64,000 nt of DNA, from assembly GCF_002571385.2 (NCBI RefSeq), contig NW_019217786.1, positions 927,676-991,675 of the forward strand, written 5' to 3'. Below, piece by piece: positions 10,701 to 63,479 of this stretch (position 1 is its first letter; each line of letters opens with the position of its first letter). The translations under genes and the position numbers were made by a program. The notes below the pieces were generated by a model. That model was not told the origin of the DNA, made no database searches, and worked only from the letters and a program-made list of their open reading frames with translations. This DNA comes from Stylophora pistillata. Its lineage: Eukaryota.

Positions 10701-12283
10701 AAATAGATACACAGGTAATCCAACCCTTCATAACAGGGTGCAATGTAGACCTCTTTGCCTGTCGCCTAGCAGCTCTTCTCCCAACATACGCCAGTTGAAA
10801 ACCAGACCAAGGGGCTTTTTACACGGACGCAATGGCCCTAGACTGGGCCCCTCTGAAAGGCTACGCCTTTCCACCATTCGGCCTGATGGCGCCAGTCCTG
10901 AAAAAGGTCTCGCAGGACAAGGCGGATCTGGTCCTAGTAGGTCCAGTCTGGCAGGCGCAACCTTGGTGGCCAGTTCTTCTGAACCTCCTCACCGAAAAAC
11001 CAGTCATGATCCCGAACTCCAAATACTTGCTGAGGGACCCTGCATCCCCCCTCAGAATCCATCCAATGTATCCCAGGCTCCATCTGGCCGTCTTTCACGT
11101 ATCAGGGAACAAAATCAAACAGAAGGTTTTTCAGAGGACATTACCGAAATACTCCTCTCAGCCACTCGTACCTCCACACGTAAGACATACCAGTCAACCT
11201 GGGGAGAATGGAACAGCTGGTTTGGTAAACAGAAAGTTAATCCAGTTTCAGCAACACTAAATGATGTCCTTCTCTTTTTGACTGATCGCTTTAAAAGCGG
11301 GGCTGCGTATCGGTCAGTCAATGTAGTATTGTTCAGCTATCTCCTTCTGTCACCCAAATATTGACGGCTACTCCGTGGGCCAACATCCCCTTGTTGTTCA
11401 ACTCTTAAAAGGAATGCGAAACATGCGTCCTCCAAAACCCAGATACACACACACACACACGTGGGATGTGCAACTTGTAACTAAGTACTTGGATTCTCTT
11501 GGGAAAACTAAACTTTTTCCCCTAAAGCTCATCTCTATCAAGCTGGCAATACTTTTTGCCCTTACGTGTCCAAAGCGAGCTTCGTCCCTTGCTAAATTGG
11601 ACCTCCGTTACTGCCGTGTAGCCCCCGAGGGAGTTTCCTTTACGCTCACACTTCCGAGGAAGCGAGGTTCAACAGATCAGTTACCTCAAGCATTTTTTGC
11701 GTCCTTTCCGTACAACAAGAGACTCTGCCCTGTTGACACGCTCCGTGTTTACCTTAAGGCTACACGTCACTTGCGTCCAGTCGTCCCATCGTCAAAGCCA
11801 GATTCCTTGTTTGTCTCCTCTGTTAAACCTCATAACCCAATCACGACCCCAACACTTAGTCGATGGCTTCGCACAGCCATAAAGAATGCTGGAATAGACA
11901 CTGAGTTGTTTAAGGCTCATTCGGTTCGCGGAGCCTCGACCACAGCAGCAGCGAACAGTAACGTTCCACTTGACGATGTTATGAAAATGGCAGATTGGTC
12001 TCGTGTCAGTACCTTTCAAAAGTTTTATTACAAACCGGTTTTCAAGGCCAGTATGGTCACTGTACTTCAATAACTTACAAGTTTTCGTTACATTTCTATG
12101 GTCATTATGTAATAAACTGTTTATTGAAGTTACTTGTTTTCTGTCAAGTTATTTTTTATCTTGACCATACCCTACCCCTCTTCTGCACACTACATACATG
12201 TCAGGGCGATGAATTCTACCTGATGTTTTCTCATATATTTCGAACAGAGTCTGTGTAATATAATTAACAATTATTCCACGAGC

Positions 12284-12314
<31 letters not shown>

Positions 12315-12342
12315 AGAGGCGCGTAGCGCCGAGTTGGCTATA

Positions 12343-12379
<37 letters not shown>

Positions 12380-12527
12380 TTTTATTAAAAACGTTAAATT
12401 AAATTATTAAATTTTATTAAATTTTTAGCTCCCTTTTAATTTTAAGCTGACGCGTACGCTTACCATATTTGAAGATTATGGTATATTGGCTCATATATCA
12501 TAATGGCTAAGCCAATAAAAAGTCTTG

Positions 12528-12559
<32 letters not shown>

Positions 12560-15500
12560 TCCCAATTATACCAGGGCCACGAAGCGGCCTGCCAGTATAA
12601 TTCAAATTATATAAACAAACGAAGTGAGAAATATGTGAGTTCCACCCCTCAAACCTTGTATCTGGTATTTTCACACAGCGTTAAAGAGATGCAAAGGATC
12701 ATGGGACCATGTGCTTGTACAGGGGCACTATGGGATTGCGTCACCTTTTGACCTGTCCCTGGGTGGGGACAGGCTTTAATATGCGTTAAAAAGTGGTTCG
12801 AAGCACAAATAAGCGGAATTCTACCTGATGCTTTCTCATATATTTCTCATTTCGTTTGTTTATATAATTTCAATTATACTGGCAAGCCGCTTCGCGGCCC
12901 AGGTATAATTAGGATTAAGTTCGTTGGTTTTGAAGGAGGTGCCATTTCCCCATCAGTAGGTTCTTGAGGCTAGGTAAAGCCGGGTGACAGTACAAAAGAC
13001 TGTTTAATTCTGTGCGTTACTTTCTTTGTTTTTAAGTGACCCTCTTCTTTCGGAGCAGATAACCTAGTCTTATATCTCTCCAGAACTTCGATGGGTATCC
13101 TCTATTCCCTTCTTTAAGCGTATTTTGAAACTGTACGTGTTTGGTAAACACGGAGCGCGTGGGATTTGTTATTAGGATGCGAAACCCGTCTCTTTTTGCA
13201 AGTCCTTTCTTTACGCCACGTAAAAAGTGTTGACTGGCCAGCATGACTCTTGCCAGGCGTCGAGTGTGATATGAACGACTTTTTCCGCAGTTGCCCGTAT
13301 GTAAACTAAAACAATGGCGTGGTTGACAGGGATCCTTTGAGACGGTGGCCAACAATAAATCGAACGAAATGACTACTTTTAGATTTTTCAAGTTAGTACA
13401 GTAGCGACTGAAATGTTTCTTTCCTGAGGTAACTTTTTATCCCAAGCAATGAAAGCTAGTCAGTGAGTACGAGTGTGCACTTACGTTCTCCTTGGAGAGC
13501 CAGGAGTAAAGTCCTCGTCACTGGCCTGTGTTTTTTGTGCTTTCGTCCATTTGGTTTTGAGCTGGAACCAAGCAAGGAACGCAAGGGGTCACATAATAGA
13601 CAGTATCAGACAACTGGATAAATGATATATACCGTCACCCCGTTGTGTCAGGACAGAGAGGATACCAAACGTGAAAAAGCTGTCGGTTAACTTTTTGTCC
13701 TGTTTCACACTTTTGTCCGAAGAATCAATTAAGAAAGAATTAAACACGCAATGAATGGATTTCTTTTTATCGGATTCTGGTGTTCGCGCAAAGATTCCTA
13801 AGAATCTCCATGCAACCGAGGAAGACACTGCTCCATACTCTTGTATCTTTCACTTTGACTACTGTAACTTGCTTCTATTTACTCTACCTAAATATCAACT
13901 TGATCTTTTACAGAAAGTTCAGAACGCCTTTCGCCATATGTATCCTTTCAGTACCCTATAATGATTGCCCCGTGGCGATCCCAGCAAACGCAAGGATCCA
14001 AGATTGGCAACTCATTCATTCAAGTAATCAAGGACTTGGATAATTACATAAAATTCCAGGTAAAATCCACACCTCTTCCTGCCATTAGAGGCGATGTGTT
14101 GAATAAAAAAAAAACATTGATTTTATTCCTCGATCTATTCCACGAAATTTTTGGTTGGTACTTTTGTTTAATGTCGGAATCAGGGAATTGTTATGATTAA
14201 CTTAAACTTTTCGCCAACATTGAACCAAGAATGAACTAGCGCGTCAAGATTTACCTGAGCCAATGGTATGTCACTGCTGTTCCTCTTCAAGGATCTCTTC
14301 GCTGATCTTGAGGAAGACGTTGTCGGATCCGCCTTGTCTGCTACTTCATGGTCCTAAAGAAAGAAAGAAACAAATAAACAAACAAACTGTTTTAGGGTCT
14401 TGCTACCAGCTCCTCAGGTCGAAATAGTGAAACAGCTTTCGCAATAATAATAATTGCGAAATGATCTCGAACCGATATAATGTCCCTTTTCTTCATACAA
14501 GTTTAAAGCAGAAAAAGTAACAAATGAGCGTTAGAATAAAAAAAGACAAGACTTAATTTGATTTCGAACACCCACAGCACTACTAGCACTGATGAGTGTA
14601 CAGAGTCAACAGGGATGCAAAATGAAACCCATAAACTTTTATTCTCACTGAAGAAGAGGAATCTGTTTTTGAAGAGACGCTTCTTTCAGCAGCGAGTTCT
14701 CTTTCCACGTTTTCTTTCTCATGTTTGATCCCCTCTATACTCCTATCCTTGTCGTCAAGTTGTCTCTGGTAATCCCGTTTCGTTTTGCGCAGTTCCTCTT
14801 CCATCTCTCGTCTCAAATCCTGCTTACACTGCTCGCGGATGGTGGACAGTTTGATTTCATACTCCGCCTTTTTGGCGTTAGCCACCTCTAATGTTTGACG
14901 CATGGTTTTCATGATGTTGTCTCTTGAATCGTTCATTTTGCTGATTTCTTCATCCTTCTTTACTAGCTTTTCCTCCAGAGTAGCACGCTCTTTCTGCAAG
15001 ATGGCTATTTCCTTCTCCATGTTCTGCATCCGCTCGGAGGCGCTACGCTCATAAACTTCGTTCTTGTTGGACATATTTTTCATGGCATCACTAGCAGCCA
15101 TCGCTTGGTTCTTCAAGTTGGTAATTTCCTTTTTCTTTATGTCCAGCTCCTTGGTTGCAAAGGCGTTCTTTTCTTGCCAAGTTTGCAGTTCTGTGGAAAG
15201 AGTCTCCAATTCACCTTGACGTTCGTCAAGTGCCTGTCCTTGTTCAGCTAATATTATATCTTGCTCTTCTAAAACTTTTTTCAGGTGGGCAATCACATCT
15301 TTGTCCTTTCTTGCATCTGCGGAAAACAAGAACNNNNNNNNNNNNNNNNNNNNNNNNNNNNNNNNNNNNNNNNNNNNNNNNNNNNNNNNNNNNNNNNNNN
15401 NNNNNNNNNNNNNNNNNNNNNNNNNNNNNNNNNNNNNNNNNNNNNNNNNNNNNNNNNNNNNNNNNNNNNNNNNNNNNNNNNNNNNNNNNNNNNNNNNNNN

Positions 15501-28500: not shown

Positions 28501-29005
28501 CATAAAATGCGGCAAGAGTACCATATAACCCCAACATTAATTATGCATTCAGACTTGTAGACTTTGTTTATAAAGTTTTGTCGTGAAAGACAAAGAAGTG
28601 GAATGCAGAATTAATGTATGGGGTTATATGGTACTCTTTCCCAAAATGCTAGAGTTACAAACGAAGAAAATCAAATTTTCACCCACAGTCAAAATAGCTG
28701 AACCACAATATATTTCGCTACAACTTGAAAAGTTTGATACACGAACAGCAAGGGTGTACGACACTCCATGCACTTCACAAATGATATAGTTTTCGCGGGA
28801 AATGATAGCATCAACCACTTCCACGAAAAAAATTACTATGTTTTATCATATTTGTTCCCTTTGAAGGCATATCTATAAATCTATTCAAGAGAAAATAATT
28901 CCGGATAAATGTAATTCCATCGCGTACCTCAGCAATCCCTCCTTCGCACTGCTGTGCGATCGCGAGCAACATTCCATCAAAACGCTCTGAATGTGAATCT
29001 GCCAT
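22506..29005 (-). CDS. NUDC: Nuclear migration protein NudC (CS/p23-domain co-chaperone)
   Basis: Exons read [39 protein letters not shown], a charged coil, [125 protein letters not shown] and [16 protein letters not shown], with GT-AG borders. Confidence 0.96.
22699..22903. mobile_element. Short CCC..GGG MITE (piggyBac-like)
   Basis: CCCTTTAACTCCC..GGGAATTAAAGGG with degenerate TTAA-like flanks. Similar elements at about 36221-36396 and 49523-49732. Confidence 0.5.
24918..26479. repeat. About 770-790-bp tandem duplication in NudC, joined by a single N
   Basis: 24918-25685 and 25687-26479 are near-identical, differing by SNPs and small indels. Each contains the 69-nt NudC exon. Confidence 0.9.
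28511..28641. mobile_element. Merlin-like MITE
   Basis: GGCAAGAGTACCATATAACCCC..GGGGTTATATGGTACTCTTTCC TIRs, with near-identical 8-bp flanks TAAAATGC and CAAAATGC. Confidence 0.6.
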
Positions 29006-29245: not shown

Positions 29246-31336
29246 ATGGCGGACGTAGAGAGAAATATATTTTCTTTTGACGAACTTGTCAATATTTTCG
29301 GTTATCTTTCCCCTGGAGAGCTTTCTAAATGCTCTCAAGTCTGTAGAGACTGGTATGAAGCCTCCCAAGTTGGTTCTCTATGGAAGAGACATTGTTTGCA
29401 GAGGTGGAACTTCTGTCACTTGGGGAAACTGAAACCTGGTTCGTGCGCTGTTGATGCGTTTCTTCAAACATCGTGAAAAGGAGCTGGCAGGATAAGCTTC
29501 TTTTACCTGTATTTGTTCTCTATCCCCTCCCCTACTCCAGTTATATACAGAATAGAGCTTTTTGTGCTTGTTTATTCCCTCGATCGTGCCATGTTCCAAC
29601 CTTGAGAAAGTCTGAAAAGAGGGGAGAACCTATTTATTAGAGGAAATAAGTTTTCCACAGTAACAAGAGAAGTTATTTGAGTCTCAGTATTGATGCTGTT
29701 AAATTTTCAACTGTTTTTTTAGGTGATTGTAAATACAGTCGCAACAAATTAAAAGGGTGGAAATACCTACCTATTTCGATATGAATACTGCAAGATCGTT
29801 TTATCTCTCATCCACTCAAGTTTAGCCCCCTGTCCTCCCTCAAAACAAAATGGTGCATTTTAATTGGAAGAGGCATGATACATTTAATGTAGGAAAAAAT
29901 TGCAGGAATTGCATTTCTTATCATTTTAACAATTTCACAGGACATAAGAGCTTCTTTTGTTGCTTTTTGTGGTTCTCTATCAATTCATCAGTGACTAGGA
30001 TTCACCTAGTGGTGCATTGATACAGCATCTACTTGCTATTGTTCAGATTAAGCAAGTGTGGTTGTCTAACAGACCATGAATGTTCCATTTTATTACTGTC
30101 ACTTTGAACATCAAGACAAAAAATAAATAGAGGGATTTCTTTCTCTTTCAAGGAGAGAGGACATGGCAGAAGTACTATATTGCTCGAAATAAGATTGAAA
30201 CTGGTGCATCCACAGGGAGACCAAGCCAAGACTATGCATGCAAAACCTTACGTGGACATAAGAGCCAGATCACAGATGTGGTTTTTATCACAAATAATGA
30301 TATCTATAATGAGGAAATCATTGAAAAGAATGTCAATCCCATTGTTGCAAGTTGCAGTCAAGACAAGTCTGTCTGTGTGTGGAATGTGCGAGAAGGAGGA
30401 AGTCTATGGAAGAAGCAGTCTCATGAATCGTCAGTTGCCTGTCTAACAGTAGTTGCCAATAATACTCTGATGGCAAGTGGGGATGTTGAAGGGAGCATCA
30501 AGTTGTGGGACATAAATACAGAGCAAGCCACTGCATTGCAAGGAAGCCATTCTGCTGTTGTAACTTCAATGGTGTGTGGAAAAGATGTAATAGGACAAGG
30601 GAAAGGTGGAGACCAACTTCTTTTTGTTGGATTCAGAGATGGATCTGTTAAGATATGGGATCCACGACAGACGTCAAGTCCTCAATACCAGCTAACATGT
30701 TCATTTGGGTTAAATTGCGTGAAACTCCAATCTGACCATCTTATGGCCGTAGCATCTAAGTTTGAAAGCACTGTCAAGATATTTGATATACGACACCTTG
30801 CACCAGACTGCTGGAAGAGCCCTGAGCTGCAGACGCTTCAACATCCATGTGATTCAGCAGTGATTTGCCTTAGTTGGGTTCATGGAAAACAGAACCAAAT
30901 TATTGCAGGGTTCAAAAATGGTGATGTGATCCTTTGGAATACAGACACTGGGCAACAGATTCACTGTTTTAAGGGACACACAGGAGAGGTGTCATGTATC
31001 AATATGAGGGGATCAACTCTGGTAACTGCTGGCCATGATAAAACTGTGCGTTTATGGGATTTAATTTCACTTGAGTCTTTACAAACTCATACTGATCATG
31101 TGGGACCAATCACTGGGCTGCATGTTGATAGTTATCGCGTGATGTCTTCATCTAGGGATTACTCTATCAGAACATACTGTTGGTCAAAGAATTCAAGCAC
31201 TCTTGACAGTAAATACACTTTCCTTGGTGGCTCATTGCAAAGAGCAGGGAATGGCTTTGAAAAAGTACTCTGTGACTACTCTACATGTGTTGGTATGGCA
31301 AATGATGTTTTAAAAGCATACTCTTTTCAGGTATAA
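29246..31336 (+). CDS. F-box/WD40-repeat protein (FBXW-like)
   Basis: Exon 1 (29246-29438) has an F-box (DELVNIFGYLSPGELSKCSQVCRDW..LWKRHC). Exon 2 (30153-31336) is in phase and has about 7 WD40 repeats (LRGH, IKLWD, VKIWD, FKGH..VRLWD). Confidence 0.9.
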
Positions 31337-37699: not shown

Positions 37700-40600
37700 T
37701 TATGGTCCTTGCTCTACAGATGTGCTGGTGCTTGCTAGAAGATTTGAGCTTTCATTGATCAATGTTCTGTGGTCATTTTGAAACTCCCCAGATCTGTCCA
37801 TCCTTGGGGGTGGATCACCTGATGGAGATTTGCAACACTGAAGACATTCCTTAGCAGCAAGTTTCAGACGACCTCTGAATTTTTCAGTGAAAAGACAAAA
37901 TAGCAAGAAGTTTGCCAATCCTTGGCTGCTGTCACCAATTCCCTGAGAATTTTAAAAACAAAACAATTTCAATTTAACAATTTTGTTATGAACAATAATA
38001 ACTGTGACCCATAAGCATTTGTAAGTGATGTATGTATGTATCTATAGCAANNNNNNNNNNNNNNNNNNNNNNNNNNNNNNNNNNNNNNNNNNNNNNNNNN
38101 NNNNNNNNNNNNNNNNNNNNNNNNNNNNNNNNNNNNNNNNNNNNNNNNNNNNNNNNNNNNNNNNNNNNNNNNNNNNNNNNNNNNNNNNNNNNNNNNNNNN
38201 NNNNNNNNNNNNNNNNNNNNNNNNNNNNNNNNNNNNNNNNNNNNNNNNNNNNNNNNNNNNNNNNNNNNNNNNNNNNNNNNNNNNNNNNNNNNNNNNNNNN
38301 NNNNNNNNNNNNNNNNNNNNNNNNNNNNNNNNNNNNNNNNNNNNNNNNNNNNNNNNNNNNNNNNNNNNNNNNNNNNNNNNNNNNNNNNNNNNNNNNNNNN
38401 NNNNNNNNNNNNNNNNNNNNNNNNNNNNNNNNNNNNNNNNNNNNNNNNNNNNNNNNNNNNNNNNNNNNNNNNNNNNNNNNNNNNNNNNNNNNNNNNNNNN
38501 NNNNNNNNNNNNNNNNNNNNNNNNNNNNNNNNNNNNNNNNNNNNNNNNNNNNNNNNNNNNNNNNNNNNNNNNNNNNNNNNATGAGGTCATTCAGTCTTGC
38601 ATTACCGACCCCAGCAGACTGTAGTATGGTCTGCTGGGTTGGTTGGTTTATAAAGGCACAGCTGAGATTGTTGCACTTTTATCTTCTGGTAATATTCGCC
38701 CATAGAGTACACCACAGCACAGTTCTAAAAAAGTTCTCATTCGACAATTGTTTCTTGATCATTGGAACATTGCTTGAAAAAGATTTGCAATTGAATAAAC
38801 ATAACAACATCTTGAGAAAATCAACAGAACTATCACCTGACTCCCATCTTTAAAACCCCTTAACTAAAATCTGGCATGTTTTGTGAAGCAACTGGTTAAC
38901 CAGCTGCTTTATTTTGACCGTAGTATACTCAAAAACAAACCTGAAGATAAAGAAGAGCTTTTTCCCAATCTGACTTCAAAGCTGCAGCAGTGATTTGGTT
39001 GTCTAACAAATAAATGATGAAGCGAATTGTACCCCAAATACGCACCAGAATAAAAATGATGGGTAGCATTGTCAGCCTTCTCTCTGCTTTAATAGCTGAT
39101 TCTTTGTTCTGAAGAGATGTGAACTGCTTTTTTCGATGATAGACCTACATGTAAAGAATTTAAAGAGTTCCGTGCAGATTAACAACTCTAGAGGAATATG
39201 GAATGTGGTCTAACAAGGGAGAGAATATGCTTCGTGTGGATTGAAAATGGAGTTCTAGTGCTTAAGTGTCATTTTGTAAATCAGTTTTAAATAATCAAAT
39301 TCTTATTCAACCATTCATGTAAGTTAATTTCCAATCATTTTTAAATAATTGAACAGTCTAATGAAATTAACCATATCAATGGTTGCATATTCTTTGATAT
39401 ACACAGTTCTGTATTGTTTTGATTTGAATCATTATTACTATTATTATACTAATCAAAGCTATAAAAAAATTCTGAAATGTGATTGGTTATCGCCAGCCCA
39501 ATTTAGGCATTAATTAAACAATAGAGTGTTTCTGTCGAGGAACTATTGGCTGATAGTTGCCCCGCGGAAATTTGATGTTCTCAAAACAAATATTTGCCCA
39601 AGAAGCAAAGCTTCGAGGGCAAATATGCCTGATAGTTACGAGACCTAAACACTCTATTGTTTTTATTGTTCACCACTAAATTTTCTTCCGCGCCTACAGC
39701 TTGTCATAAATGTCAATAATTCGCAACCGTACATTGGCTAAATAATACCTTATACCTGTCAGAATTGAAAAGTCACTGTTTTTCCGATATGCTTAACTTG
39801 ACGGCTGTCAAACTAATCAAAACTTTTCACGGATGAGTACTACCAATCCAGGTATTTTCCCCAGACGGGCACAATCCATCGGGGTATTTTCTGCGGGCGG
39901 GCACTATGGGCTGATAGTGTCTCTCCACGGATGAACACTATCGCATCACGTGATCGATTTAAACCAATAAGAACCGGAGAAAATTTAGTAGTGAACTATA
40001 ATAGGACATAGTGTACCTCATGCTTTCAATCGGGCAGTGTGATAGGACAGTTGACACAGCATGCCTGTGTAAGTGGTCAGTATGTGTCATGTGTGTGTGC
40101 TGTTTAGTTCATTTCATCAAGTTAACTTTTCTTTTTTTATGAAAATGTATATCTGATCTTTAGTTTCTTTCTCAAATGTCATTATAGTTATTATTAATTG
40201 GTAACAGGACTTTGTGTCATCCAATTCTATCTGTAACCATACTTGTGATTAACAAATGGCTTTCCCATTTTGCATTTGTGCAATTTTGTTGATCACTAGT
40301 ATGATTACATGTGAAATTGGGCTCTCCTGAGTCCTCTTACCATTATTCATTATTTCATTTACAATTTGCACATTTCCAAAGTAATGACAACATTTCTGGT
40401 CTAATAGGAAGAAAACAGAATCAGTTTGAATCAGAAATTCGGATTCTTTGAAGTAGGAAGGAAAGAAAATCCTTAGTGACAAAGCATAGCTAAGTCTCGT
40501 CTGAAAGGTACAAGTAGCTCACAACATTACCTCCTTACGAATATGATACTTTAAACCCCAAAAAAATGTAGAAATGAGAACATATGCAGCCATTTCCCAC

Positions 40601-41157: not shown

Positions 41158-41738
41158 ACTTGCATTAGAACCTCCTACAAGGGGCTCCTATGGTGCCTAG
41201 CTTCGTTGCCGATCAGCAAATGGAGATTATTTGAAGAATGCACCGAAAGATAGAAAGCTGCAACTGGCACCATGAGAGATTCAGCACGTCTCAATAGTTC
41301 AAAACGTCACGTGATACATCCTCCGTTTCAAGGTTGTGGCGTGACCAAGATGTGACGGAAGTGACTAACGCTCCCTGGAAGTTTTGCTTGGAGATAGCGT
41401 TGGAGGGGTGCTTGAGGGCTGTGTTTGACCTCTTGAGTCTAAAAAGGTTTCGTCTTCCTTTAAGCCATGCTTTCTGTTTCGGTTTAAGACTTCTTTAGTG
41501 CCTTCAAGGATGCACAGTTTACGGGAGAGTTTATTTGGCCTTCTAGCCCGTTCTGGACCCTCCTTGAAAAACAACTCAGTAAAGAGGTCGAATTGTTTTT
41601 TCTTTGTCTCACGTTTCACACGAAATCGCATGAACTTCACATTTCTCTTAAAGTTTTCTTTTCCTGAAAAACTGTTCAGTTCGTGCTTTTCAATCTACTT
41701 GGTTATCATTACGTCATAGGACAGACGTGTATCCAGTT

Positions 41739-42489
41739 GGTTTACGGTTAGATCGCTCCCAGTTAGATCGCTCCATTCGAAAGTTAGATCGCCCCACTCG
41801 AAAGTTAGATCGCCCCATCAAATAAGTTACTTCGCTCCCAACATAAGTTACCTCGCTCCGTGTGGCAAATTAAAGTAGAGAGTCGATAAAAGACAGATGG
41901 ACAATGAATGGATAAGTAAGAGTATAGTTACACGAAGAAAGAGTCGCTAGTCGCCATTTTTGACCGAAGTCGAACCCAGTCTCGCTTGGGTCTGAGTTTA
42001 AAAACGTTTAAAAGTGTCGGTTCTTTGAAAGCAATCATAGCCATTGTTGGTCATTTGGTGGTATTTCTGTTGTCTGCTGCTGTGTTTAAACAGGACCTTT
42101 CACACCTTTTGCGCATGGCAATAATTAGCTGTTATTGTTCAGAAAAAGTCACAAGTTTTAACAATACACATGCTTATGTGAGACTTTTCAAAAACCGTGA
42201 TTACTAAAACAGCAGTATTCATAGTGCAGTGTGATTTTGTGTTAAGTGAATAGATGACCGTTAGGACACAGAATAAAGAAAACCTAGCTCACAAGACACA
42301 TCTTCTATAAACTTTAAAGATCAGTAGTAAGTAACACTGAAGTTTACCACATGGAGCGAAGTAACTTGTGTTGGGAGCGAAGTAACTTATTTGATGGAGC
42401 GATCTAACTTTTAAGTGGGGCGATCTAACTTTCGGATGGAGCGATCTAACTGGGAGCGATCTAACCATGGTGCGATCTAACCGGATACC
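41739..42489. mobile_element. MITE with long repeat-rich TIRs and 8-bp TSD
   Basis: GG..CC ends, tandem GTTAGATCGC units mirrored at both ends, perfect TSD ATCCAGTT. Confidence 0.85.
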
Positions 42490-43146: not shown

Positions 43147-43191
<45 letters not shown>

Positions 43192-44110: not shown

Positions 44111-44143
<33 letters not shown>

Positions 44144-45892: not shown

Positions 45893-46374
45893 TTAGGACC
45901 CGTGGGGATAAAGTTGTCACTCACAAGTAATTAAGTATATTAAAGCGTGACTTTCTGATTGGACGACGTTAAGCGATGAACAATTCAAAATATCTAACGA
46001 GGGTGGGGAACTATTGGCGTTTAATCTTCGTTTAACGTCGTCCAATCAGAAAAGGGCAATCAGCGTGACGGTTTCTGGCTGGCACACGAGAATCTTGTTA
46101 CGCATCCCAGACGTTTTAATACTGTGGGATTTTTGATTTTCTTCGAGGGCTAGCTGCGGTCCGTTTGGATGGATTTTCGATTGGAAGGTACGAGGAGAAT
46201 CGTGAATCTTTTGACCTTAATGCTGCGAAGTTTGAAAGCGGAGCGATGCGATTCTCGGGGGAAAAATCGCTCTGGCGCTTGAACCCTTTCAAAACAAGGT
46301 TTTCACCCTTGTCTTTTCTTTTATGTATTACATTAACGACGAACTCAAGCCCACTAACGACGAACTCAAGCCCA

Positions 46375-46430: not shown

Positions 46431-47169
46431 TAACCGTAACGGTGGCCAATTTACCATTTCAACTTTGTTGATATATTCAAATTATTTCGTTGCACCCACC
46501 GACGCAGCGCCAAACTGTTTCTTTACAAACTATCAGCCTTTATTCATAAGTTAATTCAACGTTTATTTCTCATTGATTTATATACGTAGTCAGCAATATA
46601 TCGCTGTAGTCGAGGCAAACGGTAAATCTGGCACATTGGCTATAAAATAACAATCGGCTTCACAAACAGATTGTATGGACTTCCTGTGGTTACCGTTAAT
46701 GAACTTTACACCCAAAGTCAGACACACAGTACGCTTGGGTAGCCTGTGGTATGAATGGAACTAAGCGGAAACTCGTGGCAAACCCACCTTCCTGTCACAA
46801 GACATGTTAAACAGTATCAGGAGATCTCTCTTGTACTAAAGAACACGTGCATACATTACTTCTTTCAATTTTTTTAACGTAAAGGCCCCAACATCTTATT
46901 TAACAAGTGAGATTTCAGGTCCTAAGTTGCGCTGTTTCCAATAATTCCTCTTTCTAGGTAATTACGCGTCATCTTCACTTTAGCTCGAGAGATTGCGTGA
47001 CAAGTCAAGCCTTCGCACTGTGAGCGGCTGGCTTTCGAAGGAAACGTTTTGTCTTCGTTTTTCTGATGAAAGAGTCAACCTGAAATATGAAATATTAATT
47101 GAGTTTAAAAATTAAAGGCCGCAAAGAGAAGTACAAGAAATAGCGACCGTGCGAGGTTCATCCATCAGG

Positions 47170-50100
47170 ATGAATTTTGCCAATGCATCAACAACGCATC
47201 CACCCATTACTTTGAGTTTTGGAGACATCGGAAACACGACTCTGAATCGTGCTTTGGTAACCATTACCTGCTTTTTATCTCTGCTTGGAGCATCAATAAT
47301 TATTGCTACATATATCGCATGGAAGGATATGAGGTCGACGTCAAGGAGAATCTTGGTTTACATCTCCATCGCTGACAGTATCGTGGCCGCAAGTTATATC
47401 TTTGGCGCATATCTACCTCAGAACACGAACTCGGGAGCTTGTACAGCACAGAGTTATTTATCCACCACCGCTTGCTTATGGTCCTACTTATGGACTCTTT
47501 TTATGGCTATATTTTTGTACACAACGATAGCCATGCAAAAACCCAGCACGGCTCTAAAGATGTTTTGGATGTATCATGGCATAGGATGGGGAGTGCCTGT
47601 GTTTGTCGTGAGCCTTGCTCTGTTTGAAGGTAAGCTGGGGAACGACCGTGACATTTACAGTTCTGCCTGGTGTTGGATAAAGGTAGAAGGTAGTGGAAAA
47701 AGCGCTGGCCACCACGATTACATCATTTGGATGCTTGTCACTGGCAAAGCATGGGAAATGCTGGTCTTTGTGCTTATTTTGATTTTCTATGGATTGCTCA
47801 AGTGGCATCTGCGCGAAGAGGTAAAAACAGTTTAAAATATTAAACAGTTCTGTCAAATGTTTAACTGATATTGATTCATGATGCATTCCGCAAAAATATT
47901 TAATCTTTACTCACGCTAAGAAATTCATCAGGCCACAATTTATAATGAAAAAAACAATAGGTGGTTCGCACGTTACGTCATTTCCGCCATGTTGGTGGAC
48001 GTAAACAATAGATATCTCATTAGCTTCTTTTTGTTCATCGACCAGCATTTGTTCCTTTCACCATTGTTACCTGTGTCTCTAGAGATTGGTTGGAAACCAC
48101 ATATATAAGCTAAACAGAGCATTTGTAATTTAAACATTATAAATAACTTACTACAGTGTAGATATTATCAAATTATTCACCAAGTAAAAGCGTGCTTTTC
48201 ATGAGTGCCGTGTATCTAATCTATAAATGTGAGATGTATTAATCGCTAAGCGATTCTATCCCTCTAAGGTTAAAGGTTAGACTGTTGCAAGGGCTTGCAC
48301 CAATCTAATTAAAATTATCCGATCTTTTTAGCATGAAAATTGTTAAACTGTGACTTTCATTTGAGAATTGGTTCTACGTATCGATAAAGTAATTATTAAA
48401 AGGGTCAATCAGTCATTAATCTTAAAAACTGTTTTTCACGCAATCCAAACTTAACGGACTAGCTGTCACGCTTCCTTTGCGGAAATTATGTTTTTGTCGC
48501 TTTGAGAGAACGACGGGAAGAACTTATGGTTGGAAAGTCAATCTATTATTTTATCCATAACCATTTCATTTATTTATTTATGCAGTAAATTCATTTCTTT
48601 ATGAAACATTTGAAAGAATGCTCAGTGTTTCCTGATCGCATGTTAATGTTCAATTTTATTCGCGGGACTTTTTAATTCATCGTAATCTTGGCGATAACTA
48701 ATCAGAACGATGAAAGGTGGACCTGTTGTTTTTATAGGCTCGTTTTCCCGTCATTTTAAGCTCCAGTCCACATTGTAATGTTGGTACCATACACCGAATG
48801 TAAATATGGCGTCCAATTTGAGTTGCCATTTTTTTGGACTGACTAGCCTCTCACACATGTAATAATCCTTTTGTATTTCCACGTGAAGACGAGGCTAGTG
48901 AGTCCAGAACAATGGCAACTAAAATTGGAAGCCATATTTGCATTCGGTGATTATAGTAAGGTATTGTGCCGTAAGATCTGGAATCAGAGAGCACGAGGCT
49001 GTGAAATTGCACTAAGTTTCCTGGCAAGCACTGAATAAACAACGATTCTTCCAATTTCCGACTCTCATTTGATTCATTTCCATAAAAGCACCTGGAAATC
49101 GAACCTACGGTGTTCGTCTCTGTGGTATAACCTAAGCTGGTCACATCATTACCTTTTCTTTTAGATAGGTTGAATTCTTTTCTAGTAGCATTCTTTTTTT
49201 TTATTCTAAACTGCTTTGTTTTCAGTTGCACCGTAACGAAAGGCATAGGATAAGAAGTAATGCTCTGGATGCAGCAAAAAGGGCTGACAAAAGACTAACT
49301 TGTGTTCCCGTTATTTTCCTAATTCTACGGGCCTGTGGAGTACTTCGCTTCTGTATTTATATATCTTCATCAGCAGAGGAGTTGCACTCGGCAGAAACGC
49401 GGAAAATCCAAGAAGTTTTGGTTTATTTGCAGGTAGGTGGACAACATCTTAGCTGACCTAGGCTTGCAACAGCTACACAACTCGAGGTTATAAAGCGAAC
49501 AGAAAAAGGATAGACAGTTTAACCCTAAAATTCGTAAAAAAAAAAAACTGACTAGCATCTCATTCCCCCTTACAACATAGCCTCTGAATTAAACATTAAG
49601 GTCATGAGAATAAATGAACTGATCACCAACTAAAGAAGCTCTTCATCGTCAAAAAAATTCCCCATTTCAACACCTTAAAATGTATAGAGAACAGTTTGGA
49701 AAATATGCATACTGATGTTAGGGTGAAAAGGGTTCATGGAAAGGTCAAAAGAAATACCAAACCACAATAACTAGTTGTACCTGTTGCTAACAACAAGTGG
49801 TTTAACTTTTAGGTTCGGGGCTTTTCCCAGGGGAATCTCATTTAGTATCACGCCCCATTTGCTGAAAAACAGTTTGGCTCGCTACAGAGGAGATACTTCA
49901 GAAGGCTTATTGAAAGACAACTTTGGTGAATTGAAATAAAAAAAAGAGGTAGAACCTCGAAGATTTCTTTTCGCGAAAAATAATTAAACAGCGGCCATAT
50001 TGTGTAAACGGCTTAACTTATGATAAAGCGAATCGCTTTTAGGACAATCCACAATCTTTCTTTATTGCGTAATTTTCGGACAGTATTATCCTTTTTTTCC

Positions 50101-54900: not shown

Positions 54901-55754
54901 ACATTCCGTAACTCCGCACTGGATTTAGGCACCGGATAATAACTTCTCCAGTGTGAAGTACTTCGCACCCCACTTCGTTGTTCTACCGAAGCGAATTGAA
55001 AGTCTCGTTTTTGAAGTGGGAGATTGCATAAAGGTTCTCCACCTGAGTTATTAGCAGCGTACGCAGGTCAATGTCACCGAGATACCAGTTTACATTATTA
55101 ACGTTATCTCGTAGCTGTTCCATACCTCGTTCGAGAAGCACCAATATTGACTCCTGCGTTTTGCTGGAAATAGTTCCTTCCGGGCCATTTGTTGCTGCTA
55201 TTTCTTTCATTTTATAGTGCTGCCTTACTTCAGCGACTGTGTTTTTAATATGAGCATTTACATTCGCAAACAATGATTCGTCCCAGTACTCCCCAGAATG
55301 TAGACAAGAGCATTTCAGCTTTGGCTCACTGTTCGCGAGTGATTTTCTTGATTTTCTTGCAGAATTTAAATGAGCAGATAAAATTTGAAAATGCTTAGAG
55401 AACTTTGGGATCTCCTTTCAAACACTAAACAGTATTTTTTTCATAAACAATAAACATTAAAAGAAATGGCTAATTTAACAGTAAACAGTAAAAAACATGC
55501 GCAAATAACACTAAACACTAAACCCCATTCAGACCCTCTTTACTTTGTGTTCATTACTACGTGAATACGTTTACATTTGTAGACCTCTCTAATAAACTAG
55601 AGATCTTTATTTGGTGTCGAAATATGCTCGTTTTTATTATTATTATTATTAATATTATATTATTATTATTATTATTATTATTATTTCAACTCTCTCCAGT
55701 TGTCGGGTGTTCCACTGGGTAACGTTGTTTGTGTCTCTGCAACTTCCCTTATTA

Positions 55755-55786
<32 letters not shown>

Positions 55787-56363
55787 GTCTCTTTTATCAC
55801 AGTCTTTGCTGGTGTTCTTTTTGTGCATCAGCCGGGCCCAAACCATGCACCTAGAGCGTCAGTCACTTAAGTCAATCATTCTGTTCATACACTGAGCACC
55901 TTTATAAGGATTCGGGGCGATCCCAGCATGCAGATCTTTTGAATCTCTGTCATAGTAGCTCTCTCTGATACTTTCTTGATGTTTTCTATCACACTCTTAT
56001 TATTATTATTATTATTATTACTATTATTATTATGCTTAAGAGGTACAAGAAAGAAGAGAAGAACATTTGAGACATTCGATACAGATTTTTTAATTGACAA
56101 TGCTGTGGCAAATGTAGGCGAGACGTTTTTAAAATTTGTTTTTACAGTTTTTTAGAGTAAGAGTGTCATTTCCCTTCTCATATATTTTTTTAATGTATTT
56201 CACTTTTATAAGGATAATTTTGATACAAGTTTTTTTTTAAAATTCTTTCAATACGAACGAGTAGTTGCTTTCGCGATTTTTATATGTAGGTCGTTTTTGT
56301 TATCAAAGTTAGTTTGGGTCTGATACGAGTCTGATCCTAGAGAACCGAAAAAAAATATTATTA

Positions 56364-56397
<34 letters not shown>

Positions 56398-56825
56398 TGA
56401 AGATTCGTTCTCGGAAAACTGTTGGCTTCCTGGAACATATAACATCCGCCCATATATTCGCGCAAAATGGAAGCCAAGGTTTAACTGAACATCATGAGTT
56501 TAGCTTATTCCTACAATGAACCACTGATTCCATAAATGAAAGGCCAACTGATATTTTTCCCGATTTTTTCAATGGAAAAAATTATCCTTTTTCCAAAATC
56601 ACTTGAGCNNNNNNNNNNNGTTCATTACTACGTGAATACGTTTACATTTGTAGACCTCTCTAATAAACTAGAGATCTTTATTTGGTGTCGAAATATGCTC
56701 GTTTTTATTATTATTATTATTAATATTATATTATTATTATTATTATTATTATTATTTCAACTCTCTCCAGTTGTCGGGTGTTCCACTGGGTAACGTTGTT
56801 TGTGTCTCTGCAACTTCCCTTATTA

Positions 56826-56857
<32 letters not shown>

Positions 56858-57434
56858 GTCTCTTTTATCACAGTCTTTGCTGGTGTTCTTTTTGTGCATC
56901 AGCCGGGCCCAAACCATGCACCTAGAGCGTCAGTCACTTAAGTCAATCATTCTGTTCATACACTGAGCACCTTTATAAGGATTCGGGGCGATCCCAGCAT
57001 GCAGATCTTTTGAATCTCTGTCATAGTAGCTCTCTCTGATACTTTCTTGATGTTTTCTATCACACTCTTATTATTATTATTATTATTATTACTATTATTA
57101 TTATGCTTAAGAGGTACAAGAAAGAAGAGAAGAACATTTGAGACATTCGATACAGATTTTTTAATTGACAATGCTGTGGCAAATGTAGGCGAGACGTTTT
57201 TAAAATTTGTTTTTACAGTTTTTTAGAGTAAGAGTGTCATTTCCCTTCTCATATATTTTTTTAATGTATTTCACTTTTATAAGGATAATTTTGATACAAG
57301 TTTTTTTTTAAAATTCTTTCAATACGAACGAGTAGTTGCTTTCGCGATTTTTATATGTAGGTCGTTTTTGTTATCAAAGTTAGTTTGGGTCTGATACGAG
57401 TCTGATCCTAGAGAACCGAAAAAAAATATTATTA

Positions 57435-57468
<34 letters not shown>

Positions 57469-58077
57469 TGAAGATTCGTTCTCGGAAAACTGTTGGCTTC
57501 CTGGAACATATAACATCCGCCCATATATTCGCGCAAAATGGAAGCCAAGGTTTAACTGAACATCATGAGTTTAGCTTATTCCTACAATGAACCACTGATT
57601 CCATAAATGAAAGGCCAACTGATATTTTTCCCGATTTTTTCAATGGAAAAAATTATCCTTTTTCCAAAATCACTTGAGCATTGCTCTATCTTCAGTTTAG
57701 TGATAATATTCCTCAGTGTACGTAATATTCAATAGTTTCTGTATGATTTTTATTGTGACAGTAAACGTGGAGAAGCTAGGATTTGTGTGAAAATGGCATG
57801 GCGTAACTATTGCACCCTGAATATCACAGCTACGTCCACGGGGATATTCGAAAATGTTACCACTAAGTTTAACCCATTTTGTGATGGAGAGAGAGATGCA
57901 TGGGCTTCAGGAGAAGATCAGTGCATGCAATACTATGAAGACCCCATTCAGTCTACTTCGCCTACTCAGCCGGTTTGTAGCAGAGTAGGACGCCGCGAGT
58001 ATTCCATGACTGTTCTTGGTCTCTTTGGCAGAATCTTTGGCTTTATGCTCTTGCACTTTGTGTTCGGGAGTAATTAA
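51979..58077 (+). CDS. Uncharacterised secreted Cys-rich protein with hydrophobic C-terminal tail (242 aa)
   Basis: Exons 51979-52009, 52481-52613, 53292-53540 and 57762-58077 splice GT-AG in consistent phases (1,2,2) to a stop-free 729-nt CDS. N-terminus MLLFTAVVILGSLYPCNA looks like a signal peptide; 14 Cys. Confidence 0.8.
53704..55538. mobile_element. TIR DNA transposon remnant with GAGGG ends and 6-bp TSD
   Basis: TIR GAGGGTCTGAATGGGG / CCCCATTCAGACCCTC, TTTACT on both flanks, a decayed minus-strand ORF (TNGPEGTISSKTQES..QVENLYAISHFK) and internal CCGAAG repeats. Confidence 0.75.
55549..57679. repeat. Apparently exact 1.06-kb tandem duplication around an N gap (probable assembly artefact)
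   Basis: 55549-56608 matches 56620-57679, and the ORF track repeats identical peptides offset by 1071 bp. Confidence 0.9.
55786..55997 (-). mobile_element. 5'-truncated Dong/R4-like non-LTR element inside (TAA)n
   Basis: VIENIKKVSERATMTEIQKICMLGSPRILIKVLSV* plus a 3' UTR, bounded by TAA microsatellites. Duplicated at about 56857-57068. Confidence 0.6.
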
Positions 58078-58530: not shown

Positions 58531-58652
58531 TTACTGGTAAATACTTCGCAACTGAATTGCGTATTCACAGATATAAAATAGAAATTACTGTGTATGTGTA
58601 TACATCTTATTATTAAAAAATACGTAGTTCGTCGTAAGGGGGAACTTGTACG

Positions 58653-59614: not shown

Positions 59615-59952
59615 GGTCGATCAAGTCAAATGCCTTCTTAGAATCGAACATTTATTCCCAATCTCGATAGTAGAAATATGGCCCATTTTCAGAGCTGCAA
59701 AATACGCGATTCTTCGCTCACAGGGAAGTTTGAGGAGAGCTGGCGAGAGGTTTGTGATGTGTCTGGTACTTATTATCATTTGTGCCAGGCCCCTTGCCGA
59801 TCTCTCGCCGGCTCTCTCCAGGGCCGGGCCCCCATTTTTCTCGCGGAAAAGAAAACACTCTTGCCGCATCGTATATGATGAGTGCCCGCTCGCTAGCTAT
59901 TTTGAATTCGGTCCGGCTATAACCACACAGTGTCAACTGCATTTGAATACCT

Positions 59953-60125
59953 AAAATAACCACATTTTCCGGGCTCCATAACGTGATAAAGCCGCGCGGG
60001 ATGTTGGGGGAGAACACGAGGAAAGTTAAGTCACGAGCTGAAGGCGAGTGATCTTACAAGCTTTCCGAGTGTTTTCTCCCAACATCCTTACTGGCTTTAT
60101 TACGTTATAGAACCCGGGAAAAAAA
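59953..60125. repeat. Long hairpin repeat (Crypton-like)
   Basis: GGATGTTGGGGGAGAACAC..GCTGAAGGC loop..GTGTTTTCTCCCAACATCC. Confidence 0.55.
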
Positions 60126-61689
60126 GCTAACATGTTCCTGAAGTCAAACAATGAACTAGTTATCTAGCAGACCATTATCAACTTTGCAGATCTGTTTTAG
60201 TTTTGTCTATAACACTGACTTAAACTTGATACGGGATGACGTTTCTGAGCTGATCTCCTAACATGAGGCGCAGCGGTCAGGAGTTGAACTCGAGACGACC
60301 GCGCACCATCTAACCCTATTCAGAAACAACATGAACGTCATTTTTTTGCAAACTACCGGAGAACAGGACTGAACTTGTATTATTCGCTCAGTCCATCTTC
60401 AAGGACTCAAGTTCGATTCAGTGATGAAGCAAAAGCAAAACGGAGACTTCAAATAGCTGAAATTAGCATTTTCATGTATTCAGTTACTCATTCTAAACAT
60501 GTTTTACGCCAACCACTCACCTGAAATAAGAAAAAAACTTCAAAAAAAAAACTTTGTTTATTTTGTCGGAATAACCAGTGATACCCCACTTTATTTCTTT
60601 TGAATTTGAGAATGATGTTCCCCAAGTGAATGAATGTAGTCTTTATTAAAAATAAGTAGACTCATCAGACGTGGGTCTTTACAGTCAATGAGCATTAAAT
60701 AAAGATTATCTGTACAATCGAGTATAAAGATGTGATTATAGACATTTAAAACTTCCTCTGTTCATAAAAATGTTGATAGATCTTTCCGTCTTTATTTGGT
60801 GTAAACGGAACTCATGTCCCAGTTTTCTTGGTGTTCTTATCCGTTTCGGCAGCAGCAAATCATGGAGTTGATGGTTTTCTGTAGTTATAATCTTATTAAA
60901 CAGAACTGAGTTGATCTTTCTTCTCAATTAAGGTGGCTGAACACAGTCAGTTTGCGCGCGCTTTTGCAGATGCAACTCAGCGCGCGCACAGGGACTGTAA
61001 AAAACAGACATGCCGTCAATGGAGCGGTCATTTTATTTACTCAACACGCACCCGCACTATCTATGCTATATTTTTCTCTATAGTTGGCGCAGTGTATTGA
61101 AGGCTTTAAGCTTTTATTGCAAAGATATGTTAGAAAAGTAAACGGTACAAAGAACCCAGCAATTCTCAGCTTTTTCGTCGTTACCGAAAGAACCCAGTTA
61201 GATGCAGCGCATGCGTAGTAAGTAAAAAAATTGCGATAGAATTGAAAATTTCCTTCTCGGAAAATACTTTAAGAAATAAGTAACTGGAGTATTGAAAAAA
61301 ATTGATTTTAAACAAAAGGAAATCGAGTGAACCTTCAACAAGGGATAATTAAAGATCTCTCTGTGAAATTGTTGGCAAAATGGTGTTAACTTGTGAGTAT
61401 CGTTACAAGTTCGTTGCATGCAAATTATAAAGAAAATCCAATCACTTGATCTTCTACAAAGAAACAAAACCGATTTTAATTGCTTGTTTATATCTATTCA
61501 TGTTGCCATGGCAACGGCACATACGTCAGCTTAACTATCAAAAAACAAAGTTTGTGTTGTTAACTTGCTTGCTGCCAGTTTTGGCGACCGAGAGATCAAG
61601 GGTTTCAAAGAAAATGGTGAAAGAAACAAAGGTATCAAATTCTGTATTCAGCTGATATCCTGAGATCTGTCCAGGTGGTGTAGCTGTAT

Positions 61690-62900
61690 CTATAAGTTCA
61701 GTTACAGAAGTTATCTATTGGAGCCAATTCCATTCCAAATACTTCTGATAAGCAGATCCCCAGACTTCTCTGCCATACGCAAATAAGGATAAGACGAGGG
61801 AATCAAGTAGCTTGTTAAGTTGGTCTTGAGAATAACCATAAAATTTGCAGATTCTCAAAATGTACAGTCAACTACTTGCTTTGGCTATAAGGTTGTCAAC
61901 ATGGATGTCCCAGCAGCGAGGGTTTTCTTGAAATGTGATACCGAGTAACTTCAACCAGTTTTTACGTTCAATGCCAGGTACCAGTGGTGGGTTAGGCATG
62001 GTACTCTTGCTGCAGATCAACATTTCCCATGTTTTCGAAAGATTTAAGGTCATTTTGTTACTATTAGCCCAATGTTTCATACTGTTGACTTCGTTAGTTG
62101 TTGTATCAATACTGTGTTTGGTTACAGGGATGCTAATGGTAATATGGTCATTAGCAAATTTCATCATAAGGTTCCTTCTAGGGTTGGCTAACTGCACATC
62201 ATTAACCATCAAAGAAAACAGAGTGGGGCTAAAAACCGCTCCTTGAGGCACGCCTTTATTAATGTCTTAGAACTCAGTAGTTAATCCGTCAACCACAACT
62301 CCCTGTTTTCTGAGACTCCGAAAGTCAAGAATCCAATTGATGACGTAAGGATAAATGCCTGGCATCTTGAGTTTATCGAAGAGGATGTCATGAGGTACAG
62401 TGTCAAAATGCTTTACTTAAGTCAAATGACAGTACCCGTGCGAAGTCTGCCATGGCGTCATTGTCCTGCCATTTCAACCAATTGTGCTGTGACTTTAGGA
62501 GCGCCATTATAGTGTTGGAACTTTCTCTGTAGGAAAACTGGTCAGGTCAGTGACTCGAAAGCCTCTGTATCTCAGACCCGACTAGTAACTTCTCTAATAT
62601 TCTAGTTATGATATTTGTAAGGGAAATAGGTCGTAGCTGGTTGTAGCTCGTTAAAGGTGATTCCCTTGGAATAGGAGTGACATTGGCGAGTGTCCAAATA
62701 CAAGGCACGGGTTGTTACAGCAACGAACGATTGAACAACCTCGTGATAACTGGAGCCAGGAATTGGGTGAAATCTTTCCACATCCAATAAGGAAGCCCAG
62801 TCGATGTACGCTTTTGCTGTGTAAGGAATCTTTCGACCGAGTGGACTTCGAAAGCTGGGATACGAGTGTCAGCCGGAATGAGAATCGGCCGTGGGCTGAA
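61690..62900 (-). mobile_element. Second CR1/L2-clade LINE RT fragment
   Basis: GVPQGAVFSPTLF, degenerate KFAND, MTLNLSKTWEM and LKLLGI, with an upstream FDLSK/FDTV-like remnant. Confidence 0.75.
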
Positions 62901-63164
62901 TACTAATTTAATTTAATTTATTAGCTTTGCCAAAAATACATACAATATAGAACGCGGATAAATTACAAAAACAATAACGGGCAGGCAACCACAACAGCGA
63001 TAGCCAATTACTGTGGTCCCAAGAGTAAAACGATTACATCAATAGTAGTAGTAGTAGTAGTGAACTTTATTTGTGTGTCGCGAGAAAATCTAGCGCGTAG
63101 CACTAATTGGGGACACACAGGGTAACAACGCTTAAAAAAAAGTTAGAAATCNNNNNNNNNNNCT

Positions 63165-63479
63165 ATATCTTATTAACCAAGCGCGAGGGCCGTACTGGGA
63201 GAATATCGGCCCGAGGTCTTGACAGTACGGACCGAGCGCAGCGAGGTCCGTACAAAAAAGACCGAGGGCCGATATTCTTCCAGTACGGTCCCGAGCAAGC
63301 TTGGTTAATAAGAGATTTATTATACGACTGAAGTTCAAAGGGACACAAGTGCGGTATCATTCGGGACCATTCGGGACAGTGCCCGGTCCAATACTTAGAG
63401 AATATCGGACCGGCAATAGAGCATTTTGATTGGTTGATTTTAGTTATTGGCCCTCTGACTGCCCGAGTCGTGTAATAAT
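63165..63479. mobile_element. Crypton-like hairpin element
   Basis: ATCTTATTAACCAAGC..GCGCAGC loop..GCTTGGTTAATAAGA stem, distal GATTGG, ends in AATAAT. Confidence 0.6.

What the first reader, a model, noticed from the sequence alone, without database searches (positions are those of the whole stretch)
12265..63479. Shared long-stem plus GNA mini-hairpin architecture in the DIRS end and four unrelated non-coding elements
Seen: hairpin apices read GCGTAGC (12321-12327), GCGAAGC (minus strand of the DIRS right end, 12889-12895), GCAAAGC (39605-39611, one change), GCTGAAGGC (60037-60045, one change from GCCGAAGGC) and GCGCAGC (63236-63242), while the stems are unrelated in sequence. The elements at 12265 and 39515 have TAAT on both sides, the one at 63165 ends in TAAT, and these three carry a distal CCAAT/ATTGG. 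Known: d(GCGNAGC) forms exceptionally stable, nuclease-resistant single-stranded DNA hairpins. Inference: a common structural signal for tyrosine-recombinase mobilisation through single-stranded or circular intermediates, linking DIRS ends with Crypton-like MITEs, loosely analogous to folded ssDNA recombination sites in integrons.
Basis: partly seen in the sequence, partly recalled or inferred. Interest (0 to 1): 0.72.

Follow-up and report, generated by a model that had tools for sequence, protein, structure and literature searches.

The report
Crypton mini-transposons with folded DNA ends
The four hairpins are the ends of very abundant gene-less jumping elements, two of them shortened copies of recombinase-encoding Crypton transposons, and their layout and landing sites suggest that they likely move as one folded DNA strand, as bacterial integron cassettes do; the hairpin cap shared with the neighbouring DIRS retrotransposon is not a general DIRS feature.

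Summary
The motifs are real. The four hairpins are left ends of high-copy dispersed families (E1 296 bp, E2 488 bp, E3 truncated, E4 315 bp) with one layout: long hairpin A..A', TTA, B..B', TAA. The internal A'-TTA-B is a reverse copy of the end-to-end junction, like a DIRS ICR, but 2 nt shorter. E1 and E4 are deletion derivatives of ~2 kb DUF3504 (CryptonA-type) tyrosine-recombinase elements (92-98% identity). There is no target duplication: where the left triplet is not TAA, the right is still TAA in 35 of 38 and never copies the left. GNA caps mark this layout (7/10 families versus 0/27) and sit mostly on one strand (E1 704 versus 59). Best reading, inferred only: a folded single-stranded circle integrated by one strand exchange (0.5). 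Against: 8 of 19 E2 copies lack the cap; no intermediate was seen. The DIRS link is partial: shared ICR geometry, but 0 of 13 other DIRS ends have the cap. E1 sits in the DIRS ICR junction, probably inserted twice independently. This scan already reported the Crypton reading on other DNA (52 notes, at least 16 genomes); my paper searches did not find it in print.

The parts
12264..12559 (+). E1, non-autonomous CryptonA-type element incl. right TAA (12557-12559); left host triplet 12261-12263
   Evidence: ends from 30 loci; at least 704 exact apex matches genome-wide; both ends flank a DUF3504 recombinase ORF in L179 and L174 at 92-96%
12266..12381 (+). E1 hairpin A..A' with GTA triloop (12321-12327) and tandem GA/GA mismatches
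12382..12392 (+). E1 internal junction copy: TTA core plus B (pairs with B' 12549-12556 and the right TAA)
12485..12542 (.). E1 CCAAT/ATTGG boxes; in the partner they lie about 85-140 nt before a likely start codon of the recombinase gene (likely promoter)
   Evidence: position shown; promoter function inferred
39514..40001 (+). E2, element of the same layout: hairpin 39516-39662, TTA 39663-39665, B' about 39978-39998, TAA 39999-40001; window copy lacks part of the right arm
   Evidence: 626 first-look candidates; no partner with both ends found
59965..60121 (+). E3, hairpin remnant of an older (~80% alike) ~290 bp family of the same layout; window copy has lost both true ends
   Evidence: no partner found
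63164..63478 (+). E4, young non-autonomous CryptonA-type element: hairpin 63165-63316 (GCA loop 63236-63242, GA/GA), TTA 63317-63319, B', TAA 63476-63478; left edge at an assembly gap
   Evidence: 803 exact pattern matches; both ends around recombinase remnants in L215 at 94.6-98.5%
7475..12916 (+). DIRS1-like retrotransposon with broken frames: left ITR 7482-7670, RT 9724-10275, YR 11327-12073, right ITR 12674-12862, right extension to 12916
12211..12639 (+). DIRS ICR, split by E1 into 12211-12263 and 12560-12639; E1 sits at the junction triplet
   Evidence: ICR without E1 matches the junction with no gap; same site occupied in a second DIRS copy, L002
12874..12912 (-). DIRS right-end hairpin with GAA triloop (12889-12895) on the antisense (cDNA) strand, no tandem GA

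Best explanation
E1-E4 are gene-less elements of one layout, E1 and E4 being deletion derivatives of CryptonA-type tyrosine-recombinase transposons, and they likely move as one folded DNA strand that the recombinase would join into a circle and insert by a single strand exchange. Shown: ends, layout, partners of E1 and E4, absence of target duplication, one-sided footprint, strand-biased caps, covariation. Inferred: the cap-bearing strand folds so that A pairs with A' and B with B', bringing both ends together on the internal junction copy; the recombinase would cut 3' of the triplet at each end, release a closed single-stranded dumbbell whose only double-stranded site carries two unpaired bases next to the core, and recombine it with a host TAN site; replication would resolve the product, leaving host TAN on the left and element TAA on the right. 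GNA loops and GA/GA pairs would favour folding of that strand rather than act as the recognition signal. The CCAAT boxes are likely the recombinase promoter. The DIRS shares the junction-copy geometry; its GNA cap is family-specific.
For: Partners: L179, L174 (E1) and L215 (E4); L179 ORF passes the DUF3504 cut-off and shows R, HxxR, H and Y motifs; a homologue model matches QRICH1 then Cre. Same layout around the recombinase in 12 of 80 further DUF3504 stretches and in 13 of 80 metagenome loci, with B:B' changing together. Internal copy 2 nt short in 8 of 11 families, unclear in 3; 0 nt in DIRS. Footprint: left not TAA in 38 of 68 readable copies, right TAA in 35 of them, right equal to left in 0; reverse case 1 of 30; first host base follows the element's first base (T/A 27/9 versus 5/19, p=5e-5); empty sites keep one triplet. 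Caps: 7/10 versus 0/27 families; E1 704 versus 59; E4 77 intact, 10 point-changed, 13 flipped of the first 100 listed; 14 antisense versus 1 sense in metagenome loci. 19 of 39 pairs compensatory, GA/GA kept. Cap follows the ends, not transcription, in the family whose gene runs the other way. Precedent: integron attC (PMC4792948).
Against: No circle, single strand or cleavage was observed; head-to-tail joints are genomic tandems. 8 of 19 E2 copies lack the whole capped apex. About 8-13% of E1 and E4 apices are flipped. No partner with both ends for E2 or E3. Most DUF3504 stretches (65 of 80) showed no such ends, and 19 of 40 metagenome loci with room had no hairpin. Covariation in palindromes can arise by template switching, and the 14 aligned sequences are related. 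The one-sided footprint could come from biased mismatch repair. The fold search ranks the integron integrase low (rank 50), so no integron-like adaptation of the enzyme is shown.
Confidence: 0.5

Rival explanations
1. Same CryptonA identity, but the element excises and integrates as a double-stranded circle (the published model); hairpins act as extruded cruciforms or binding arrays, with GNA loops aiding extrusion.
For: Published model for Cryptons (PMC3212892; PMC13565253); fold is Cre-like; tandems with one TAA fit either route; cap is dispensable in 8 of 19 E2 copies.
Against: Two-strand exchange over a mismatched core should give both footprints; seen 35 versus 1. Element starts are not replaced by host bases. 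It gives no role to a junction copy that is 2 nt short.
Confidence: 0.25
2. The strand folds and the internal copy guides end joining, but the circle is made double-stranded or partly copied before integration, as in the DIRS model.
For: Geometry equals the DIRS ICR; the ICR is essential for DIRS-1 (PMC7192593).
Against: One-sided footprint; a template for end repair should match exactly, as in DIRS, not be 2 nt short.
Confidence: 0.12
3. They are RNA-mediated mini-DIRS elements copied by DIRS reverse transcriptase in trans.
For: ICR-like layout; cap on the antisense strand in E1, E4 and this DIRS; DIRS RT acts in trans.
Against: Partners encode only a DUF3504 recombinase about 25% alike to the DIRS one; CCAAT boxes lie 20-160 nt inside the end with no long ITR to rebuild them; in one family the gene runs the other way while the cap follows the ends.
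Confidence: 0.05
4. They are ordinary DDE MITEs (Harbinger-like, TAA duplication) or HUH elements, and the caps are incidental.
For: Many E1 copies have TAA on both sides (22 of 31).
Against: 0 of 38 non-TAA sites are duplicated; partners are recombinases; caps confined to this layout.
Confidence: 0.03

Closest known systems
CryptonA DNA transposons of animals (DUF3504 recombinase; medaka CryptonA-1_OL 2073 bp and its non-autonomous derivatives; PMC3212892, passages and supplement rows)
   Same: Single DUF3504 recombinase gene, about 2 kb, abundant deletion derivatives, no target duplication.
   Different: That paper reports no terminal repeats in animal Cryptons; here there is a terminal hairpin, an internal junction copy, a 3-nt core and a one-sided footprint.
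Eulor5/Eulor6 and salmon Crypton-N families (PMC5753468, passages)
   Same: Classed as non-autonomous Cryptons; that they are hairpin-shaped with similar ends is my recall, not a call.
   Different: The figure and sequences are not held, so no direct comparison was made.
DIRS1-like retrotransposons (PMC3266345, PMC7192593, passages)
   Same: ICR complementary to both ends around a 3-nt junction, no target duplication, tyrosine recombinase, single-stranded intermediate shown for DIRS-1.
   Different: No RT, no long ITR, ICR 2 nt short, core TAA not AAT; GNA cap not general in DIRS.
Integron attC x attI recombination (PMC4792948, passages)
   Same: Folded single strand, unpaired bases, conserved crossover triplet with microhomology, one strand exchange and replicative resolution; structure conserved over sequence.
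   Different: Eukaryotic, enzyme of another family, no fixed attI platform; here the mechanism is only inferred.
Coral CMITEs (PMC2872659, abstract only)
   Same: Small coral repeats that form tandem arrays.
   Different: Described as TIR elements tied to piggyBac-like transposases; sequences not compared.

Membership tests
CryptonA (E1, E4) | Autonomous partner encodes a DUF3504 tyrosine recombinase and no RT or DDE enzyme | tested here: met
   L179, L174 over the Pfam cut-off; E4-end loci L215, L159 carry DUF3504/QRICH1-type remnants; elements about 2.0-2.1 kb with no other long ORF
CryptonA (E1, E4) | Catalytic R-H-R-(H)-Y residues | tested here: met
   motifs visible in P0001 and in L159, which also has stops; activity not tested
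CryptonA (E1, E2, E4) | No target-site duplication; short repeat with one copy from the element | tested here: met
CryptonA (E2, E3) | Partner with both ends and a DUF3504 gene | tested here: inconclusive
   only E2's left half lies next to recombinase genes in L184 and L218; none for E3 among 80 stretches
CryptonA versus other Repbase Crypton groups (e.g. CryptonV) | Phylogenetic placement with reference elements | not testable with these tools
   no Repbase sequences held; no tree was built; top fold match is the CryptonA-derived QRICH1
CryptonA as published | No terminal repeats | tested here: not met
   split inverted repeats and terminal hairpin present; read as an undescribed feature, so filed as a variant
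DIRS1-like (element 7475-12916) | RT, YR, ITRs, right extension, ICR around a 3-nt junction | tested here: met
DIRS1-like (E1-E4 as mini-DIRS) | Long ITRs, exact ICR, RT-encoding partner | tested here: not met
DDE MITE | Terminal inverted repeats and target duplication | tested here: not met
   0 of 38 non-TAA sites duplicated
attC-like single-strand site (works like) | Imperfect palindrome, unpaired bases, strand bias, structure conserved over sequence | tested here: met
attC-like single-strand site (works like) | Enzyme binds and exchanges only the folded strand | not testable with these tools
   needs biochemistry; footprint is indirect support

The most novel reading that the evidence does not exclude
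Animal Cryptons and DIRS retrotransposons use one strategy: a single DNA strand folds on an internal junction copy into a recombination site and is integrated by one strand exchange, making Cryptons eukaryotic integron-like single-strand mobile elements and removing the need for the double-stranded circle assumed for both classes.
Probability: 0.22. Interest if true: 0.88.

Novelty: new variant of a known kind. Interest (0 to 1): 0.6.

Why it matters
Crypton transposition has not been shown experimentally (PMC13565253), and animal Cryptons were reported to lack terminal repeats. A defined end layout, cut position and strand give a direct assay. If true it would be single-strand tyrosine recombination in eukaryotes, would explain how these elements multiply to hundreds or thousands of copies, and gives a rule for classifying many unassigned hairpin repeats. 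The value of this particular window is reduced because the scan has noted the same design many times; its own additions are the genome-wide strand counts, the negative DIRS control and the repeated insertion into a DIRS ICR.

Tried and rejected
TAAT or TAA as a target duplication: rejected. GNA cap as a general DIRS signal: rejected; of 20 stretches fetched 13 had a recognisable right end, none with the cap on a stem of 4 or more; 11 of the 13 are related, so about two other families were sampled; 20 further stretches could not be obtained. 'Mirror' idea for the family with an opposite-strand cap (L170, L194): refuted, more copies show the usual polarity and a variable left triplet. A transposing flipped-cap lineage: not supported, flipped copies fall in several internal subtypes. 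First ICR detector too strict, first flank count not de-duplicated; replaced. Empty DIRS ICR in public contigs: not seen in two tries, which proves nothing. Rfam: no match at the hairpins. Structured-RNA reading: not favoured, caps are the DNA mini-hairpin type. Sequencing-run shares were not used as evidence. No tree was built; no complex was predicted.
Full report
Observation. The five apex strings are at the stated places. The window lies in a 398-Mb eukaryote genome, G000; named homologues of its recombinases come from corals. The heptamer alone is not enriched (14 versus 11.2 in shuffles); its position at hairpin tips is (below).

True extent. Each hairpin is the left part of a dispersed family: first-look candidates 1542, 626, 215 and 2099 for E1-E4, 40 scored each. 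Flanks give E1 12264-12559, E2 39514-40001, E4 63164-63478. The E3 family is about 290 bp and about 80% alike; the window keeps only its hairpin. All have the layout A..A', TTA, B..B', TAA. Whole E1 and E4 fold into two helices that meet at the ends. The internal A'-TTA-B is the reverse complement of the end-to-end junction; it is 2 nt shorter in 8 of 11 families compared, unclear in 3, and exact in the DIRS. E1 forms head-to-tail tandems with one TAA between units (7 of 38 distinct copies have a left neighbour).

Partners. A DUF3504 search gave 91 matches; I fetched 80 stretches around them. L179 and L174 carry E1 bases 1-133 and 159-299 at 92-96% around a recombinase ORF; it passes the DUF3504 cut-off and shows the R, HxxR, H and Y motifs. 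L215 carries E4 bases 40-174 (98.5%) and 172-318 (94.6%) around recombinase remnants; L159, L189 and L197 share its body at 92-96%. The two recombinases are about 25% alike, and as far from the DIRS one. Twelve more of the 80 stretches have hairpin plus B..B' enclosing the gene; the other 65 did not show it. No partner with both ends was found for E2 or E3. A model of a homologue (pLDDT 72.5) matches QRICH1, then Cre; the integron integrase ranks 50th. In 80 metagenome loci of homologues, 23 have a hairpin after the gene, 13 of them with B..B'-TAA whose sequences change together; caps are antisense in 14, sense in 1, absent in 8; 19 of the 40 loci with at least 550 nt of room had no hairpin. 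These loci are related to each other. CCAAT boxes lie 70-140 nt before likely start codons in partners, so they are probably promoter remnants.

Footprint. Of 84 distinct full copies, 68 had a readable left triplet (7 tandem and 9 gap-edged copies dropped). It was not TAA in 38; the right triplet was TAA in 35 of these and equal to the left in 0. Left TAA with right not TAA occurred in 1 of 30. The first host base after TAA follows the element's own first base (T/A 27/9 for E1+E2, 5/19 for E4; p=5e-5). Empty sites in a satellite and inside E2 keep one triplet (output was cut, I saw its head and tail). Element starts are not replaced by host bases. By my reasoning, two-strand exchange across a mismatched core gives both footprints after replication; one was seen.

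Caps. In 40 arbitrary 10-kb stretches plus the window (441,520 readable bases) there were 62 long hairpins in 37 families; 14 had a cap, against 2.5% by chance; caps were in 7 of 10 families with a junction copy and 0 of 27 without (p=1e-5). Genome-wide exact E1 apices: 704 native, 59 flipped. E4: 803 matches; of the first 100 listed 77 intact, 10 point-changed, 13 flipped. Flipped E1 copies fall in several internal subtypes (10 flipped copies aligned), so flips look independent, as template switching would give. One family first seemed to have the opposite polarity; more copies showed 3 native, 1 flipped and 2 made-perfect among 6 readable apices, and its gene runs the other way, so the cap follows the ends, not the transcript. 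Across 14 E1-clade hairpins 19 of 39 pairs are compensatory, above all 500 shuffles and all slid controls, while GA/GA mismatches persist; the sequences are related. Against a required cap: 8 of 19 E2 copies lack the apex. GCGNAGC and GCGNNAGC are known very stable DNA mini-hairpins, found at some single-strand origins and promoters (PMC13037366, passages).

DIRS. The element at 7475-12916 has RT, YR, ITRs, right extension and ICR. E1 lies exactly at the ICR junction triplet. A second DIRS copy (L002) has E1 at the same site; the DIRS bodies differ at 77 of 1385 bases but the E1 parts at 2 of 198 (p about 0.001), which suggests two independent insertions, though conversion is possible; a further E1 sits in that copy's right end. 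The likely reason is that the DIRS junction context matches E1's preferred site. An empty ICR was not seen. Of 13 other DIRS right ends, none has a C-GNA-G cap on a stem of 4 or more on the antisense strand; most show the ICR with an AAT junction and, by eye, a weak terminal hairpin with GA-rich loops; 11 of them are one related group.

Mechanism. Most likely (0.5) the cap strand folds, the recombinase closes it into a dumbbell with two unpaired bases beside the core, and one strand exchange plus replication inserts it, as for attC (PMC4792948, passages). Rivals: double-stranded circle (0.25), fold-guided joining then second-strand synthesis (0.12), RNA route (0.05), DDE or HUH (0.03). Identity as CryptonA-type derivatives is about 0.9 for E1 and E4, about 0.8 for E2 and E3.

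Literature. Kojima and Jurka found no terminal repeats in animal Cryptons (PMC3212892, passages and two supplement rows); the Glomhopper paper has no mention of hairpins (PMC13465315, passages); the mechanism is undemonstrated (PMC13565253, passages). DIRS-1 makes antisense single-stranded cDNA, needs its ICR and has a noted 3' hairpin (PMC7192593, passages); DIRS ends are mostly ATT (PMC3266345, passages). PMC5753468 and PMC12130899 were read as passages, PMC2872659 as abstract. Nine searches (listings only) showed no paper describing this end layout or a single-strand route for Cryptons; Repbase Reports, subscription journals, figures and preprint supplements were not visible and may hold it. 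The scan's own notes, read after I had formed this reading, report the same design in at least 16 other genomes; they are unchecked and not counted as support.

Verdict. Real feature; new variant of a known kind; interest 0.6.

Noticed in passing
window 7801-8110: An insertion in the DIRS 5' region, absent from three other copies and partly alike to 36853-37041.
   Followed up: no
L036 (G000:C86) about 1500-1592: A DIRS copy in which the recombinase end joins directly to the right-end hairpin, lacking ICR and most of the ITR; the same joint appears in public contigs.
   Followed up: partly
window 63152-63163 and many E4/E1 copies: Assembly gaps often abut the hairpin end (9 of 27 E4 copies), so these ends may be under-assembled.
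   Followed up: partly
L184 5712-5816 and L218 2367-2469: E2 left half, cut just after the mini-hairpin, lies 3' of a DUF3504 gene in two related loci.
   Followed up: partly
L309-L328 DIRS right ends: A shared terminal hairpin with GA-rich internal loops on the antisense strand and a splice-donor-like word on the sense strand (by eye).
   Followed up: no
window 41746-42466, 48792-48949, 28511-28641, 45952-46052, 5773-5872: Other inverted-repeat elements without junction copy or C-GNA-G cap.
   Followed up: partly
window 33822-34640, 40519-41187, 47116-47835: Three related seven-transmembrane receptor gene pieces (7tm_2 / Dicty_CAR matches).
   Followed up: no
window 1450-2388; 2611-2683; 30131-31336: Integrase-core ORF (rva_4), a weak tRNA match, and a WD40 ORF.
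   Followed up: no
window 55549-57679: A 1060-bp tandem duplicate at 100% identity, possibly an assembly artefact.
   Followed up: no
window 63095-63101: A further GCGTAGC just left of E4 and the gap, perhaps a remnant of another capped element.
   Followed up: no
G000 C1491, C3014, C3385 and other short contigs: Strong phage-integrase matches on small contigs, likely bacterial DNA in the assembly.
   Followed up: no
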